Shown: positions 1-30,846 of the stretch, one piece after another | Position numbering within the stretch: the first letter of the stretch is position 1 | Layout of the letters: every line of letters starts with the position of its first letter | Sequence record: MN895435.1 | DNA from: Escherichia phage teqhal | DNA: 64,000 bases | Direction: 5' to 3' (one strand) | Notes under the pieces: model-generated | Databases searched by the model: none | Seen by the model: only the letters and a program-made list of their open reading frames with translations | Told to the model about the DNA's origin: nothing | Position numbers and translations under genes: made by a program

Positions 1-1
1 T

Positions 2-226
2 GAAAATTATATTCCATTGTGGTTTATTGCATTATATCATTTTGCTTTCGCTAGTGAATATGATATAATGAGATGGTTTACTCGAGAAGAGCGTGAAGAC
101 TTAAAAGATCGTGGAATGTACATTGCGATTTATGAAGTGCCAGATGATCAAGTTATCATTGGTGGGCATCAAGTAATGTTTCGCAAATCGCATGCCGAAT
201 TAAAAGGCTTTATTACCTTAGATTAA
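2..226 (+). CDS. hypothetical protein, probable 3' part of a gene starting upstream of the window
   Basis: Frame open from position 2; first in-window start is TTG at 17; no RBS seen; synteny suggests dexA/motB region. Confidence 0.3.
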   Translation, partial: ENYIPLWFIALYHFAFASEYDIMRWFTREEREDLKDRGMYIAIYEVPDDQVIIGGHQVMFRKSHAELKGFITLD

Positions 227-235
227 AGGAAAATT

Positions 236-736
236 ATGATTAAAATTAATACTACGTATCAAATGAAAAAACCATCTGAAATTGATTTCCAGACAATGTC
301 GAATACGACTGATAGCAAGTTTTGGGAACTTCTTGGTACAACTGGCGGATATCCTTTTACTGTTATTAGTGTTAATAGCGGAATTCTCATTGGTACAGTG
401 TACATGGAAATTAGAAACTATTATGGAAGGGTATCATCATTCATCATCTATGAAGAAGATTTCAATTTATTGACAGAAATTGAAAAAGAAGAACAAGAAA
501 AATCCCATATTGATATGGATTTAGTTTCTATGTATGTAACACCAGTTGAAAAAATTGAAGACCCGACTGATTTGTTGTGTAAGGCAGTTTATATTCGTCG
601 TCCATTCGCGAATCCGATTGGCGGTTGGGTAACTGATCAGTGGATTGAAGATGGTGTTGAACTTCTGAACGTAGTTCATGCTGGAGAGTACTCTGTAGTT
701 CCTCGCAGCGCAGTGATTAATGTTCGTGTAAGCTAG
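236..736 (+). CDS. hypothetical early protein, 166 aa; paralog of the next ORF
   Basis: ATG with AAAGGA RBS; C-terminus (TDQWIEDGVELLNVV..G.Y.V.P.S) clearly related to C-terminus of 810..1301. Confidence 0.55.
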   Translation: MIKINTTYQMKKPSEIDFQTMSNTTDSKFWELLGTTGGYPFTVISVNSGILIGTVYMEIRNYYGRVSSFIIYEEDFNLLTEIEKEEQEKSHIDMDLVSMYVTPVEKIEDPTDLLCKAVYIRRPFANPIGGWVTDQWIEDGVELLNVVHAGEYSVVPRSAVINVRVS

Positions 737-809
737 TTTACAAACTCTTGGGACCAGAGTATAATGGTCCTGCGGAGTATAAAATCTTTTTAACAAGTGA
801 GAGATAATT

Positions 810-1301
810 ATGAATATTAATATCGGTGAAATTGCTCGTGTATCTGATAAATCCCGTTCTAAGGCAGCAGGAAAATTGGTTGAAGTTGTAAGCATTCAGC
901 TTAAACATGGCGTTAAAGATGAAGATTCTGAAGTAAAAGTGCGTATCATTCCTAAAGATGGAATGTCTAAACCTCAGTTTGGTTATGTTCGATGGAAATT
1001 TCTTGAGCCTGCGTTTTTGAAAGCTGTTCCCGCTAAAGGAATTGAAACGATTGATACTTCGCATGTAGGTGTAGACTTTAAGTGGAAACTCGGTCAAGCT
1101 ATCAAGTTCGTTGCTCCTTATGAGTTTGAATTTACTGAAGGTGAGGAAGGTGTTGTTAACCGTACTCGCGCTATGTGTGCATACATTACCGATCAATGGG
1201 TAGAAGACGGTGTTAAGTTGTACAACACGGTATTTTTAGGAACATACAAAGTCATTCCTGAAAGCTGGATTAAACACTATAGCAAAGCTCGTTATGCATA
1301 A
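810..1301 (+). CDS. hypothetical early protein, 163 aa; size and position consistent with T4 MotB (tentative)
   Basis: ORF with RBS; shares C-terminal motif with 236..736; synteny upstream of gene 39. Confidence 0.55.
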   Translation: MNINIGEIARVSDKSRSKAAGKLVEVVSIQLKHGVKDEDSEVKVRIIPKDGMSKPQFGYVRWKFLEPAFLKAVPAKGIETIDTSHVGVDFKWKLGQAIKFVAPYEFEFTEGEEGVVNRTRAMCAYITDQWVEDGVKLYNTVFLGTYKVIPESWIKHYSKARYA

Positions 1302-1398
1302 AGTTTAAAATTTTTTCATAAAACTATATACATCAGTAGTTGATTATGGTACTATATCAATATCAACTACTGATACAGAAAACAACTTGGAGAATAAA

Positions 1399-1668
1399 AT
1401 GGAAAACTTAATTATCATCGAGCAATCTTTCAACGATTATGGTATGGCTTATGGTTATCGTGCGATAATGGAAGATTCTCGTGGATGTGTTATCGATATT
1501 GCTGAATGTAAAGATTTACTGCAGCTTTTGAAGATTGTTCGCAAAAATTGGGATTGTGAAAACATTAAAGCTCGTGTTGTAACGGAAGAAGAAACTGTTT
1601 TTCATGATGTAAAATTTGCCAAAGATGCTGCTACTCTTCTGAAACGCATCGCTCCACTGTTCAATTAA
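1399..1668 (+). CDS. hypothetical protein, 89 aa
   Basis: ATG preceded by conserved GGAGAATAAA leader (track start 1387 is a TTG inside the RBS). Confidence 0.5.
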   Translation: MENLIIIEQSFNDYGMAYGYRAIMEDSRGCVIDIAECKDLLQLLKIVRKNWDCENIKARVVTEEETVFHDVKFAKDAATLLKRIAPLFN

Positions 1669-1681
1669 TGAGGAAATTGTA

Positions 1682-1897
1682 ATGAAACGTAAAATTGTTC
1701 AGAATTGCACTAATGACGAATTTGAAGATGTATTATTCGATCCAGATTTGGTAGTAGTTCAAAAGGAACACACCATCAAGTTTACTCACTTGACTTCGGT
1801 TTATGTGTATGAAAAGGTTGGTGATAAACAACCGATTTATGGTGTATTCCGTGAAATCACTGAAGACGGTACAACTTACTGGAAGGAAATTTATTAA
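1682..1897 (+). CDS. hypothetical protein, 71 aa (size and synteny compatible with T4 cef; tentative)
   Basis: ORF with GAGGAA RBS. Confidence 0.45.
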
Positions 1898-2316
1898 TGG
1901 CTATTAAATTTGAAGTTAATAAATGGTATCAATTTAAAAATAAACAAGCTCAAGAAGCTTTTATTAAAGACCATACTGAAAACGGAATTTATGCACGACG
2001 TTTAGGTATGGAACCTTTTAAAGTTATAGATATTGACTATCTTGGTCGTCCTACTAAAATTATGTCATCTACTGGAAGATTGGCATTATCCTCCGGTAAA
2101 GATATTTTGGATGAAGATTTTATTTGGCTTTCTACTAGCGAAGCTGAATTCTTTGATGAAGTGGAAAATCCATACCAGGCAGCTGAAGAGCAAGAGCAGG
2201 AAGAGAAAGAGCAAATAGAAGATTTCACAGAATTCCCAATCATGAAAGTTACTATTGAAAATAATGAACAGGCATGGTCCTTGTATCAGATGTTGAAAGC
2301 TCACTTTAAGGAATAA
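1897..2316 (+). CDS. hypothetical acidic protein, 139 aa (position compatible with T4 goF/comC-alpha; tentative)
   Basis: ORF start overlaps previous stop; glutamate-rich C-terminal region. Confidence 0.45.
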
Positions 2317-2318
2317 TT

Positions 2319-2495
2319 ATGCCAATGTATGATTATAAATGCCAATCCGAAGATTGCGGGCATGAATATGAAAAAATTAAAAAGATTTCTGAACGAGAAA
2401 ATGATGTTTGCCCTAAATGTCATCGTTTGTCTACTCGTCGGCCTTCTGCTCCTAAGCATGTGAATGGTGGTTTTTACGACTTACTTAAAGGGTAA
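2319..2495 (+). CDS. small zinc-ribbon protein, 58 aa
   Basis: Not in ORF track (under 60 aa); CxxxxC and CxxC cysteine pairs (CQSEDC ... CPKC); start overlaps upstream stop. Confidence 0.4.
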   Translation: MPMYDYKCQSEDCGHEYEKIKKISERENDVCPKCHRLSTRRPSAPKHVNGGFYDLLKG

Positions 2496-2497
2496 TT

Positions 2498-2869
2498 ATG
2501 TTTAAAATCGGTAAGAAATATTGCATTCGTGAAGGTGAAGAACAGAAATATCTACTTTCTGCTAGTAATAGGAATAGTTCTATTAATGCTGTAATATCTA
2601 CAAGCGAATTTATCGTTGAAGATATGAAAGGTAATAATGTCACAATGATTAGTACAGCATCTGGAAATGATGGAAAAATTCTTCACAGTTTTCAGAGTAA
2701 TGTTCTAATTTATGATGAAGAATTTGACCTATTCGAAGAAGTTACAGAAGATTTTGATTTTGAATGCACTATCACTATGAAATCTGGCGATCCTCTTTCT
2801 TTTACAGTTAAAGATGAAAGAAGCCGCTTGAGAGTTATTAGTCTTCTTCAAGCCATTAAATTTAAGTGA
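2498..2869 (+). CDS. hypothetical protein, 123 aa
   Basis: ORF with RBS, tightly packed with neighbours. Confidence 0.5.
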   Translation: MFKIGKKYCIREGEEQKYLLSASNRNSSINAVISTSEFIVEDMKGNNVTMISTASGNDGKILHSFQSNVLIYDEEFDLFEEVTEDFDFECTITMKSGDPLSFTVKDERSRLRVISLLQAIKFK

Positions 2870-2874
2870 AAATT

Positions 2875-3135
2875 ATGAAATATATTAATCGTTCTATCGC
2901 AGCATTAGTATTAGCAGTGTCTTTAGTAGGATGTACTGATGCTGATAATGCAACTAAAGTTTTGTCTTCAAGTGGTTTTACTAATATTGAAATCACTGGA
3001 TATAACTGGTTCGGTTGCTCTGAAAATGATTTCCAACATACTGGATTTCGTGCTATTGGACCTACCGGGCAGAAAGTAGAAGGAACAGTATGTTCTGGGC
3101 TGTTCTTTAAGGATTCAACTATTCGTTTTAAATAA
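2875..3135 (+). CDS. putative lipoprotein, 86 aa
   Basis: Signal peptide followed by lipobox LVGC (MKYINRSIAALVLAVSLVGCTD); followed by a hairpin. Confidence 0.5.
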   Translation: MKYINRSIAALVLAVSLVGCTDADNATKVLSSSGFTNIEITGYNWFGCSENDFQHTGFRAIGPTGQKVEGTVCSGLFFKDSTIRFK

Positions 3136-3136
3136 A

Positions 3137-3153
3137 AGGCCTTCGGGCCTTTA
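3137..3153 (+). terminator. UUCG-loop hairpin after the lipoprotein ORF (weak terminator or RNA stability element)
   Basis: aggcc-ttcg-ggcct stem-loop followed by TT. Confidence 0.35.
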
Positions 3154-3204
3154 GCTTTATGATTACCGGAGTATAATATTCCCGAAACCAAACGAGGATA
3201 AGTG

Positions 3205-5022
3205 ATGATTAAGAATGAAATTAAAATTCTGAGCGATATTGAACATATCAAAAAGCGTAGTGGCATGTACATTGGCTCTTCTGCTAATGAAATGCATGAG
3301 CGCTTTCTGTTTGGTAAATGGGAAAGTGTTCAGTATGTACCTGGTCTTGTTAAGCTTATTGATGAAATTATCGATAACTCAGTCGATGAAGGTATTCGTA
3401 CTAAGTTTAAATTCGCGAATAAAATTAATGTTACCATTAAAAATAATCAGGTAACAGTTGAAGATAACGGTCGCGGTATTCCACAAGCGATGGTTAAAAC
3501 ACCTACCGGTGAAGAAATTCCTGGTCCAGTTGCTGCTTGGACTATTCCAAAAGCGGGTGGTAACTTCGGTGATGATAAAGAACGCGTCACTGGCGGTATG
3601 AATGGTGTTGGTTCTAGTTTAACTAACATTTTTTCTGTGATGTTTGTCGGAGAAACTGGCGACGGTCAAAATAATATTGTAGTTCGTTGTTCAAACGGCA
3701 TGGAAAATAAATCATGGGAAGATATTCCTGGAAAATGGAAAGGAACCCGTGTTACTTTCATTCCTGATTTTATGTCATTTGAAACTAATGAGCTGTCCCA
3801 AGTTTATCTTGACATTACACTAGATCGTCTCCAGACACTTGCTGTTGTTTATCCTGATATTCAATTTACCTTTAATGGTAAAAAGGTTCAGGGCAATTTT
3901 AAGAAATATGCACGCCAATATGATGAGCATGCTATTGTTCAAGAACAAGAAAATTGTTCTATTGCGGTTGGTCGTTCACCGGATGGTTTTCGTCAATTAA
4001 CTTATGTGAATAACATCCACACTAAGAATGGTGGCCATCACATTGACTGTGTTATGGATGATATTTGTGAAGACCTTATTCCACAAATCAAACGTAAGTT
4101 CAAAATTGATGTAACTAAAGCACGTGTCAAAGAATGTTTGACTATCGTTATGTTTGTTCGTGATATGAAAAACATGCGATTTGATTCTCAAACTAAAGAG
4201 CGTTTGACTTCTCCATTTGGCGAAATTCGTAGTCATATTCAGCTTGATGCTAAAAAGATTTCACGCGCTATTTTAAACAATGAAGCGATTTTGATGCCAA
4301 TTATTGAAGCTGCGTTGGCTCGTAAATTGGCGGCAGAAAAAGCAGCAGAAACTAAAGCAGCTAAAAAGGCTTCTAAAGCTAAGGTTCATAAACATATCAA
4401 AGCGAATCTTTGTGGTAAAGATGCTGATACTACTCTTTTCTTGACTGAGGGTGATTCGGCTATCGGATATCTTATTGATGTTCGTGATAAAGAACTTCAT
4501 GGTGGTTATCCATTGCGTGGTAAAGTTCTCAACAGTTGGGGTATGTCATATGCTGATATGCTTAAAAACAAAGAACTGTTTGATATTTGCGCAATCACTG
4601 GATTAGTTCTCGGTGAAAAAGCTGAAAACTTGAATTATCATAATATTGCTATTATGACTGATGCTGACCATGATGGTCTAGGAAGCATTTATCCTTCTCT
4701 GCTCGGGTTTTTTAGTAATTGGCCAGAATTGTTTGAGCAAGGACGAATTCGCTTTGTCAAAACTCCTGTAATCATCGCTCAGGTCGGTAAAAAACAAGAA
4801 TGGTTTTATACAGTCGCTGAATATGAGAGTGCTAAAGATGCTCTACCTAAACATAGCATCCGTTATATTAAGGGACTTGGCTCTTTGGAAAAATCTGAAT
4901 ATCGTGAGATGATTCAAAATCCGGTATATGATGTTGTTAAACTTCCTGAGAACTGGAAAGAGCTTTTTGAAATGCTCATGGGAGATAATGCTGACCTTCG
5001 TAAAGAATGGATGAGCCAGTAG
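3205..5022 (+). CDS. 39: DNA topoisomerase II large (ATPase) subunit, single-chain 39+60 type
   Basis: 605 aa from ATG at 3205 (track start 3202 is GTG); N-terminus MIKNEIKILSDIEHIKKRSGMYIGS is GyrB/gp39-like; continuous ORF with no bypass element. Confidence 0.9.
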   Translation: MIKNEIKILSDIEHIKKRSGMYIGSSANEMHERFLFGKWESVQYVPGLVKLIDEIIDNSVDEGIRTKFKFANKINVTIKNNQVTVEDNGRGIPQAMVKTPTGEEIPGPVAAWTIPKAGGNFGDDKERVTGGMNGVGSSLTNIFSVMFVGETGDGQNNIVVRCSNGMENKSWEDIPGKWKGTRVTFIPDFMSFETNELSQVYLDITLDRLQTLAVVYPDIQFTFNGKKVQGNFKKYARQYDEHAIVQEQENCSIAVGRSPDGFRQLTYVNNIHTKNGGHHIDCVMDDICEDLIPQIKRKFKIDVTKARVKECLTIVMFVRDMKNMRFDSQTKERLTSPFGEIRSHIQLDAKKISRAILNNEAILMPIIEAALARKLAAEKAAETKAAKKASKAKVHKHIKANLCGKDADTTLFLTEGDSAIGYLIDVRDKELHGGYPLRGKVLNSWGMSYADMLKNKELFDICAITGLVLGEKAENLNYHNIAIMTDADHDGLGSIYPSLLGFFSNWPELFEQGRIRFVKTPVIIAQVGKKQEWFYTVAEYESAKDALPKHSIRYIKGLGSLEKSEYREMIQNPVYDVVKLPENWKELFEMLMGDNADLRKEWMSQ

Positions 5023-30465: not shown

Positions 30466-30846
30466 ATGTATACCGGTAAAAAGTATGAACTTGTTCCAAG
30501 ACTTATTGATACATTTATTAATTATAGCCCACGTTCTAATTCATCAATCGTTAAAGCTATTCGAGATAATGGCGGATGGTTTGAAGTTAAAGAAGTTTCC
30601 GTCGCTAATGGATATAAAGCAGTAAAACACATTGAATGCGCAAATGGAAAGCATTTTTACCTCAAAGATAGACTTTTAGAAATTTGCGAAGATGAATTTC
30701 ATTGTTTTCGTGAGTATAAAGAACCGACTTCTGAAGAAGATGAAGTCAAAGACAAGGTTTCTGGCGTAACAAAAATTCACTGCATTGTAGATGAAAACAA
30801 TGTAGATGAAATCATTGAACTTTTGCGAAAAACTTTTAAGGCCTAA
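30466..30846 (+). CDS. hypothetical protein, 126 aa
   Basis: GAGGAAACCGTAATG RBS. Confidence 0.5.
   Translation: MYTGKKYELVPRLIDTFINYSPRSNSSIVKAIRDNGGWFEVKEVSVANGYKAVKHIECANGKHFYLKDRLLEICEDEFHCFREYKEPTSEEDEVKDKVSGVTKIHCIVDENNVDEIIELLRKTFKA

What the first reader, a model, noticed from the sequence alone, without database searches (positions are those of the whole stretch)
236..1301. Tandem paralogous early genes upstream of the gene 39 cluster
The 166 aa and 163 aa ORFs share a clearly related C-terminal region (TDQW[IV]EDGV.L.N.V..G.Y.V.P.S) and diverged N-termini. This points to a local duplication followed by divergence; the second copy is at the position expected for MotB.
Basis: seen in the sequence. 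Interest (0 to 1): 0.4.

Follow-up and report, generated by a model that had tools for sequence, protein, structure and literature searches.

The report
motB.1 and motB share a domain
These are the known neighbouring early genes motB.1 and motB of a T4-like phage, which share one small C-terminal domain but have unrelated N-terminal domains; this relationship was published in 2021, so the finding is correct but ordinary.

Summary

The window is a Tequatrovirus closest to phage AR1. The downstream ORF is MotB (Pfam PF17613, E 1e-96). The upstream ORF is MotB.1, 100% identical to AR1 MotB.1.

Only the C-terminal domain is shared. It is predicted as a five-stranded SH3-like barrel, and the predicted strands line up between the two proteins. 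The N-termini are not diverged copies. MotB.1 has a GoF/Frd.2-type barrel (hhalign 92%, E 6e-7). MotB has a different, basic barrel, KOW-like at fold level, with no similarity to the GoF family.

A Klebsiella phage (Potts1) has one gene in the same slot, with a MotB-type N-terminus and a MotB.1-type C-terminus. This fits a tandem duplication followed by replacement of the N-terminal domain.

The shared domain and the duplication idea are published (Son et al. 2021, PMC7827196). The GoF-like N-terminus is published too (Kim et al. 2025, PMC12152347). Verdict: already known, low interest.

One side observation: the T4 reference motB.1 (119 aa) carries an extra G that truncates the shared domain. 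Eleven other T4 records, plus RB55 and RB59, lack it.

The parts
1..226 (+). 3' end of motB.2, cut by the window start. It is unrelated to MotB and MotB.1.
   Evidence: AR1 annotation and ORF. BLASTP against MotB found nothing better than E 2. It belongs to phrog_1106.
236..736 (+). motB.1, 166 aa, acidic (pI 4.6), predicted as two domains.
   Evidence: 100% identical to AR1 MotB.1. phrog_2333 E 1.8e-83. AlphaFold2 mean pLDDT 78.7 with a disordered linker at residues 96-106. Charge figures.
236..481 (+). MotB.1 N-terminal domain (residues 1-82): a GoF/Frd.2-type small beta-barrel, called 'LSm-like' in the literature.
   Evidence: hhalign against the GoF/ORF123/Frd.2 family gives 92%, E 6.3e-7 over 78 columns. 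phrog_622 E 2.2e-4. The GoF N-terminal profile hits the 180-aa MotB.1 variants at E about 1e-7. Published in PMC12152347.
491..556 (+). 22-residue linker insertion (EQEKSHIDMDLVSMYVTPVEKI) that is absent from the 143/144-aa T4-type MotB.1. It carries a D.D[IVL]..[SC].Y motif that sits at other positions in other variants.
   Evidence: Alignment A1. Motif scan found 85 occurrences at varied positions. The region is low-confidence or disordered in the model. Homology to the MotB linker was not supported.
572..721 (+). Shared MotB-type C-terminal domain in MotB.1 (residues 113-162): five predicted strands with SH3-like topology.
   Evidence: hhalign. Pfam motB positions 114-153 match residues 121-160, E 5.2e-8, 33.4 bits against a cut-off of 25. 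Strands E117-120, 128-138, 141-148, 151-156 and 160-162.
737..765 (+). Promoter-like site between the two genes: TTTACA, 17-nt spacer, TATAAT (11 of 12 matches). It would give motB its own early promoter. It is identical in T4 and AR1.
   Evidence: Consensus scan. Conserved in alignment A3. Function is inferred, not shown.
810..1301 (+). motB, 163 aa, basic (pI 9.0), predicted as two domains.
   Evidence: PF17613 E 1.1e-96 over the full length. phrog_1671 E 3.7e-76. AlphaFold2 mean pLDDT 81.0 with a disordered linker at residues 70-83.
810..1013 (+). MotB N-terminal domain (residues 1-68): basic (pI 9.6), KOW-like at fold level.
1086..1277 (+). Shared C-terminal domain in MotB (residues 93-156), with a 13-residue insertion that lengthens the first beta-hairpin.
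   Evidence: hhalign. Strands E97-110, 115-132, 135-142, 145-150 and 154-157 line up with those of MotB.1 under the hhalign mapping.
1897..2316 (+). goF, whose N-terminal domain is homologous to that of MotB.1. It is the likely family of origin of the MotB.1 N-terminus.
   Evidence: phrog_622 E 1.2e-39. AR1 and T4 annotation. hhalign of A1 against A5.
2498..2869 (+). 123-aa additional GoF-family paralogue. No gene of this kind is annotated in the T4 reference.
   Evidence: phrog_622 E 8.4e-29 and phrog_2333 E 4e-4. BLASTP against the MotB.1 N-terminus E 0.005. MotB.1 N-terminal profile E 0.0036 across the window. T4 annotation.

Best explanation
The two ORFs are motB.1 (236-736) and motB (810-1301) of an AR1-like Tequatrovirus, lying in the early-gene run motB.2, motB.1, motB, cef, goF, 39.2, 39.

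Shown here: they share one homologous module, a C-terminal five-stranded SH3-like beta-barrel of about 50 residues in MotB.1 and 64 in MotB. The conserved core, TDQWxEDGVxLxNxV, forms the hairpin between the second and third strands. Their N-terminal domains belong to different families. MotB has a basic barrel that is KOW-like at fold level. MotB.1 has an acidic GoF/Frd.2-type barrel.

Inferred history: an ancestral single motB-like gene (MotB-type N-terminus plus this C-terminal domain), as still found alone in the same slot of Klebsiella phage Potts1, was duplicated in tandem. The upstream copy then exchanged its N-terminal domain for a GoF-type domain, a family with several copies nearby. 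The downstream copy gained a hairpin insertion. The event is old: DNA identity in the core is 56% overall and 41% at third codon positions.

Function, taken from the literature: MotB is an early, non-specific DNA-binding protein that co-purifies with H-NS and StpA, alters H-NS footprints and raises burst size about two-fold.

Function, inferred: the shared domain is slightly acidic and far more conserved than the MotB.1 N-terminus. It is therefore more likely a common partner-binding or oligomerisation module than the main DNA-binding surface, with MotB's basic N-terminus supplying DNA binding. MotB.1 would couple the same module to a GoF-type, possibly RNA-related, domain. Its own role is unknown, and the gene is dispensable in the laboratory.

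The confidence given is for the gene identities and the domain-level paralogy, which I put near 0.97. The duplication-then-swap order of events is about 0.6, and the proposed role of the shared domain about 0.3.
Confidence: 0.85

Rival explanations
1. One reading: the whole gene was duplicated in tandem, and the N-terminal halves then diverged beyond recognition while the C-termini stayed conserved.
For: The genes are adjacent, on the same strand and of similar length (166 and 163 aa), each with two domains and a linker. Both N-terminal domains are predicted small beta-barrels, so a very deep common origin cannot be excluded.
Against: The MotB.1 N-terminus is significantly similar to a different family, GoF/ORF123/Frd.2. 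The MotB N-terminus is not. MotB-type N-termini remain recognisable even in distant Marfavirus proteins (E about 1e-8), so loss of all signal within one genus by drift is unlikely.
Confidence: 0.12
2. Domain shuffling without a tandem duplication of the whole gene: the C-terminal barrel is a mobile module that recombination fused independently to different N-terminal domains (MotB-type, GoF-type, doubled GoF-type).
For: The family shows many architectures: one or two GoF-type N-terminal domains, extra N-terminal extensions, a MotB-type N-terminus with a MotB.1-type C-terminus, and a linker motif that changes position. A 29-aa stand-alone core peptide in RB69 is reported in PMC7827196.
Against: The two genes are directly adjacent, and the single-copy hybrid sits in the same slot. 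A local duplication is the simplest source of the second C-terminal domain. The two models differ mainly in the order of events.
Confidence: 0.25
3. The similarity is chance, low-complexity composition or convergence.
For: None beyond the short length (29 residues) of the BLASTP match.
Confidence: 0.01

Closest known systems
T4 MotB ('modifier of transcription'; Pfam PF17613; phrog_1671)
   Same: ORF 810-1301 is an orthologue. It matches the Pfam model over its full length (E 1.1e-96), sits in the same position upstream of cef, and has the same upstream promoter-like sequence as T4.
   Different: Only ordinary sequence divergence: 86% identity to the cluster seen in the most contigs (P0126).
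T4 MotB.1 (phrog_2333; UniProt P39415, 'uncharacterized 13.8 kDa protein')
   Same: ORF 236-736 is the orthologue: 100% identical to AR1 MotB.1 and 82% to T4 over the aligned part. It has the same GoF-type N-terminus and MotB-type C-terminus.
   Different: The window form is 166 aa, with a 22-residue linker insertion that the 143/144-aa T4-type lacks. The T4 reference entry is 119 aa because of an extra G found only in that sequence.
GoF / Frd.2 'LSm-like fold' family of Tevenvirinae (Kim et al. 2025, PMC12152347)
   Same: The MotB.1 N-terminal domain is homologous to it. Three further members lie in this window: goF at 1897-2316, a 123-aa ORF at 2498-2869 and frd.2 at 30466-30846.
   Different: GoF, ORF123 and Frd.2 have a different C-terminal part ending in a helix-like ...LL.A.FK motif. 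MotB.1 carries the MotB-type barrel instead.
Marfavirus (Klebsiella phage Potts1) single 'MotB-like' protein POTTS_128
   Same: It occupies the same slot upstream of cef, has a MotB-type N-terminus and carries the shared C-terminal domain.
   Different: Its C-terminal domain is of the MotB.1 type, without the MotB hairpin insertion, and it is the only copy in the 8 kb examined. Neither window gene has this combination.

Membership tests
MotB (Pfam PF17613) | Full-length match to the family model above the gathering score | tested here: met
   ORF 810-1301 scores 321.6 bits against a cut-off of 25, covering profile positions 1-162 of 162. ORF 236-736 matches only profile positions 114-153, at 33.4 bits. 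That is above the cut-off, but it covers the C-terminal domain only.
MotB (Pfam PF17613) | MotB-type basic N-terminal domain | tested here: met
   Met for ORF 810-1301: the MotB N-terminal profile gives E 1.8e-35, and the domain has pI 9.6. Not met for ORF 236-736, which gets no hit from that profile. ORF 236-736 is therefore a protein containing the MotB C-terminal domain, not a MotB orthologue.
MotB (functional definition) | Non-specific DNA binding, co-purification with H-NS/StpA, toxicity on over-expression | not testable with these tools
   Known only for T4 MotB (PMC6070864, PMC7827196). Transferred to ORF 810-1301 by orthology.
MotB.1 (phrog_2333) | Full-length family match and position immediately upstream of motB | tested here: met
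   phrog_2333 E 1.8e-83 over residues 1-165. 100% identical to AR1 motB.1. Gene order is motB.2, motB.1, motB.
GoF/Frd.2 LSm-like N-terminal family | Sequence homology of the N-terminal domain to GoF and Frd.2 | tested here: met
   hhalign 92%, E 6.3e-7 over 78 columns. phrog_622 E 2.2e-4. Direct BLASTP of MotB.1 against GoF finds nothing, so the link is visible only with profiles.
GoF/Frd.2 LSm-like N-terminal family | Bent five-stranded antiparallel beta-sheet | tested here: met
   The AlphaFold2 model has strands E7-10, 41-48, 54-60, 66-72 and 79-82, plus an inserted helix at 23-36, with pLDDT 82-88. This is a prediction only.
KOW domain (MotB N-terminus, as proposed in PMC7827196) | Match to the KOW sequence motif or Pfam KOW | tested here: inconclusive
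OB-fold / cold-shock DNA-binding domain (shared C-terminal domain, as proposed in PMC7827196) | Five-stranded Greek-key barrel with a helix between the third and fourth strands, and structural neighbours that are OB-fold proteins | tested here: not met

The most novel reading that the evidence does not exclude
The shared C-terminal barrel may be a common interaction module through which MotB and MotB.1 form hetero-oligomers or compete for the same host target, for example H-NS/StpA-DNA complexes. MotB.1 would then modulate MotB's anti-silencing activity or redirect the module to RNA through its GoF-type domain. This could have been missed experimentally if work on T4 MotB.1 used the 119-aa product of the frameshifted reference annotation, which lacks most of the shared domain. 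Whether it did was not established here.
Probability: 0.12. Interest if true: 0.4.

Novelty: already known. Interest (0 to 1): 0.1.

Why it matters
It matters little as a discovery. The shared MotB/MotB.1 C-terminal domain, the duplication hypothesis and the GoF-like N-terminus of MotB.1 are all in print. What this check adds is modest. It gives a formal statement that MotB.1 is a chimera of two families encoded in the same gene cluster. It identifies a plausible single-copy form in the same slot in Marfavirus. It gives a fold-level indication that the shared domain is SH3-like rather than an OB-fold. It also gives a practical warning that the T4 reference motB.1 is frameshift-truncated relative to every other T4 record examined. 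That last point could affect how experiments on '13.8 kDa MotB.1' are read.

Tried and rejected
1. MotB.2 as a third paralogue. BLASTP against MotB found nothing better than E 2 and it belongs to a separate PHROG. Rejected.

2. A third copy of the shared domain elsewhere in the 64 kb, including short ORFs like the RB69 29-aa peptide. Six-frame profile searches found none.

3. Homology between the MotB.1 linker insertion (IDMDLVSMYVTPV) and the MotB linker (IETIDTSHVGV). The long phrog_1671 envelope, residues 79-162, suggested it. hhalign with only the insertion-bearing MotB.1 variants still aligned just the core, 36 columns. Not supported.

4. Direct pairwise similarity of MotB.1 to GoF. None was found. 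The link needs profiles.

5. A solved structure for either family. Nothing turned up in PDB sequence searches.

6. A known RNA family in bases 1-3300. None at E <= 0.1.

7. A recent duplication or gene conversion. Rejected, because core DNA identity is 56% and third-position identity 41%.

8. A scan of IMG/VR for the frameshifted T4 allele. It found 0 matches, against 8 for the intact allele.

Full report
**What the window is.** The first 3.3 kb match 612 phage records. The best match is Escherichia phage AR1 (Tequatrovirus) at 96.9% identity over the full length, and 320 records cover at least 80% of the query. In AR1 the gene order is dda, dexA, motB.2, motB.1, motB, a 90-aa ORF, cef, goF, 39.2, two small ORFs, then gene 39. 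T4 has the same core order. The + strand of the window is the direction of T4 early transcription.

**Checking the observation.**
- ORF 236-736 (166 aa) and ORF 810-1301 (163 aa) exist as described, and the quoted motif reads exactly in both.
- BLASTP gives 16/29 identities with E 1e-9.
- The Smith-Waterman score of 98 compares with 29.4 ± 4.8 (maximum 52) in 2000 shuffles.
- With family alignments (A1: 21 MotB.1-type sequences; A2: 23 MotB-type), hhalign aligns MotB.1 113-162 with MotB 93-156. The probability is 98.5% and E 3.3e-15, and MotB has a 13-residue insertion.
- Profiles of each C-terminal domain, searched against a six-frame translation of the whole window, find only the partner gene (E 6e-12 and 2e-12). 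There is no third copy.

**What the two genes are.**
- ORF 810-1301 is MotB: PF17613 at E 1.1e-96 over the full model and phrog_1671 at E 3.7e-76.
- ORF 236-736 is MotB.1: 100% identical to AR1 MotB.1 and phrog_2333 at E 1.8e-83. It matches Pfam motB only over profile positions 114-153 (33.4 bits against a cut-off of 25).
- The partial ORF at 1-226 is the end of motB.2, which is unrelated.
- A promoter-like site lies between the genes at 737-765: TTTACA, 17-nt spacer, TATAAT, 11 of 12 matches. It is identical in T4 and AR1. motB.1 follows motB.2 after 9 nt. The promoter's function is inferred, not shown.

**Anatomy.**
- AlphaFold2 with the family alignments predicts two domains joined by a disordered linker in both proteins. 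MotB.1 has mean pLDDT 78.7 with the linker at 96-106. MotB has 81.0 with the linker at 70-83.
- Under the hhalign mapping the C-terminal strands coincide. MotB.1 E117-120, 128-138, 141-148, 151-156 and 160-162 correspond to MotB E97-110, 115-132, 135-142, 145-150 and 154-157.
- The MotB insertion lengthens the first hairpin.
- Both models have tight two-residue turns between the second, third and fourth strands, and a short helical turn before the fifth. This is SH3-like topology.

**The N-termini are different domains, not diverged copies.**
- The MotB.1-family N-terminus aligns with a GoF/ORF123/Frd.2 family alignment (A5) at 92% probability, E 6.3e-7, over 78 columns.
- It hits phrog_622, the family of GoF, at E 2.2e-4.
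- An independent GoF N-terminal profile hits the 180-aa MotB.1 variants at about 1e-7.
- MotB shows no relation to the GoF family (0.4%).
- The MotB N-terminal profile finds nothing else in the window.
- MotB is basic (pI 9.0 overall, N-terminus 9.6). MotB.1 is acidic (pI 4.6). The shared domain is slightly acidic in both.

**Evolutionary reading (inferred).**
- The MotB.1 family is modular. It includes forms with one or two GoF-type N-terminal domains, extra N-terminal extensions and a short D.D..S.Y motif whose position varies.
- A group of 144-147-aa proteins from Klebsiella phages combines a MotB-type N-terminus (E 4e-9 to 4e-7) with a MotB.1-type C-terminus (scores 115-120 against 41-49 on the MotB-type profile).
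- In phage Potts1 (Marfavirus) this is the only such gene in the 8 kb examined. It lies between a dexA-sized gene and cef.
- The simplest history is tandem duplication of such a gene, then replacement of the upstream copy's N-terminus by a GoF-type domain and a hairpin insertion in the downstream copy.
- The divergence is old: 56% nucleotide identity in the core and 41% at third codon positions.
- Independent fusion of a mobile C-terminal module is a close rival. It differs mainly in the order of events.

**Function.**
- From the literature, T4 MotB is an early, non-specific DNA-binding protein. It is toxic when over-expressed, co-purifies with H-NS and StpA, changes H-NS footprints and raises burst size about two-fold (PMC6070864, PMC7827196).
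- Deleting motB.1 gives no laboratory phenotype, and MotB.1 did not stabilise a reporter RNA (PMC12152347).
- My inference from charge and conservation is that the shared barrel is a partner-binding or oligomerisation module and that MotB's basic N-terminus binds DNA. This was not tested.

**Comparison with what is known.**
- Son et al. 2021 state that MotB and MotB.1 share a conserved C-terminal domain with different N-termini. They say MotB.1 is encoded immediately upstream of motB and that one gene may have arisen by duplication of the other.
- Kim et al. 2025 describe the MotB.1 N-terminus as homologous to those of GoF and Frd.2.
- The finding is therefore already known.

**Side observations.**
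- The T4 reference (AF158101.6 / NC_000866.4) has an extra G inside the TDQWIE codons of motB.1. This truncates the annotated protein to 119 aa.
- Eleven other T4 records, plus RB55 and RB59, lack that base. MT984581 annotates a 143-aa MotB.1.
- Neither of the two papers mentions this.
- The window also holds Frd.2 at 30466-30846, an extra 123-aa GoF-family paralogue at 2498-2869 that is not annotated in the T4 reference, and a stable hairpin downstream of motB.

Noticed in passing
L002 (T4 NC_000866.4) about 4306, minus strand; corresponds to window about 646-650: The T4 reference sequence (AF158101.6 / NC_000866.4) has an extra G (GGATTGGAAGATGG against GGATTGAAGATGG) inside the conserved TDQWIE codons of motB.1. 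The annotated protein therefore ends ...TDQWIGRWR at 119 aa (13.8 kDa) and loses most of the MotB-like domain. Eleven other T4 records, plus RB55 and RB59, lack the base, and MT984581 annotates 143 aa. The two MotB.1 papers read here do not mention it.
   Followed up: partly
window 2498-2869 (+): This 123-aa ORF is a full-length GoF-family paralogue (phrog_622 E 8.4e-29) with weak direct similarity to the MotB.1 N-terminus (BLASTP E 0.005). No corresponding gene is annotated in the T4 reference, and AR1 calls it 'no match'.
   Followed up: partly
window 30466-30846 (+): This 126-aa ORF is Frd.2 (Pfam PF03197 E 5.9e-33), the third published member of the GoF/MotB.1 N-terminal family. A MotB.1+ORF123 N-terminal profile picked it up at E 0.016.
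   Followed up: yes
window 491-556 (+) and proteins P0027-P0120: A short motif, D.D[IVL]..[SC].Y..P, lies in the window MotB.1 linker insertion. In other MotB.1 variants it sits at other positions: at the N-terminus of the 180-aa forms and between domains in the 247-251-aa forms. It falls in low-confidence regions of the model. It might be a short linear interaction motif.
   Followed up: partly
L011 (Klebsiella phage Potts1) 3827-4261 and 4545-5264: Potts1 has a single MotB-like gene (MotB-type N-terminus plus MotB.1-type C-terminus) upstream of cef. The next gene, of 239 aa, contains two GoF-type N-terminal repeats.
   Followed up: partly
window 1332-1374 (+): A 20-nt-arm inverted repeat lies just downstream of motB. 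It folds as RNA at -23.6 kcal/mol (z -5.3 against shuffles). No U-run follows, so it is not a canonical intrinsic terminator. No Rfam family matches.
   Followed up: partly
window 3202-5022 (+): Gene 39 (topoisomerase II large subunit) is a single 606-aa ORF. It is not split into genes 39 and 60 as in T4, and no mobA or gene 60 was seen in the AR1 annotation of this stretch.
   Followed up: no
window 2866-3135 (+): This 89-aa ORF (39.1 in AR1) starts with a signal-peptide-like stretch ending LVGC, a possible lipobox. It overlaps the stop codon of the preceding ORF. It belongs to phrog_902, of unknown function.
   Followed up: no
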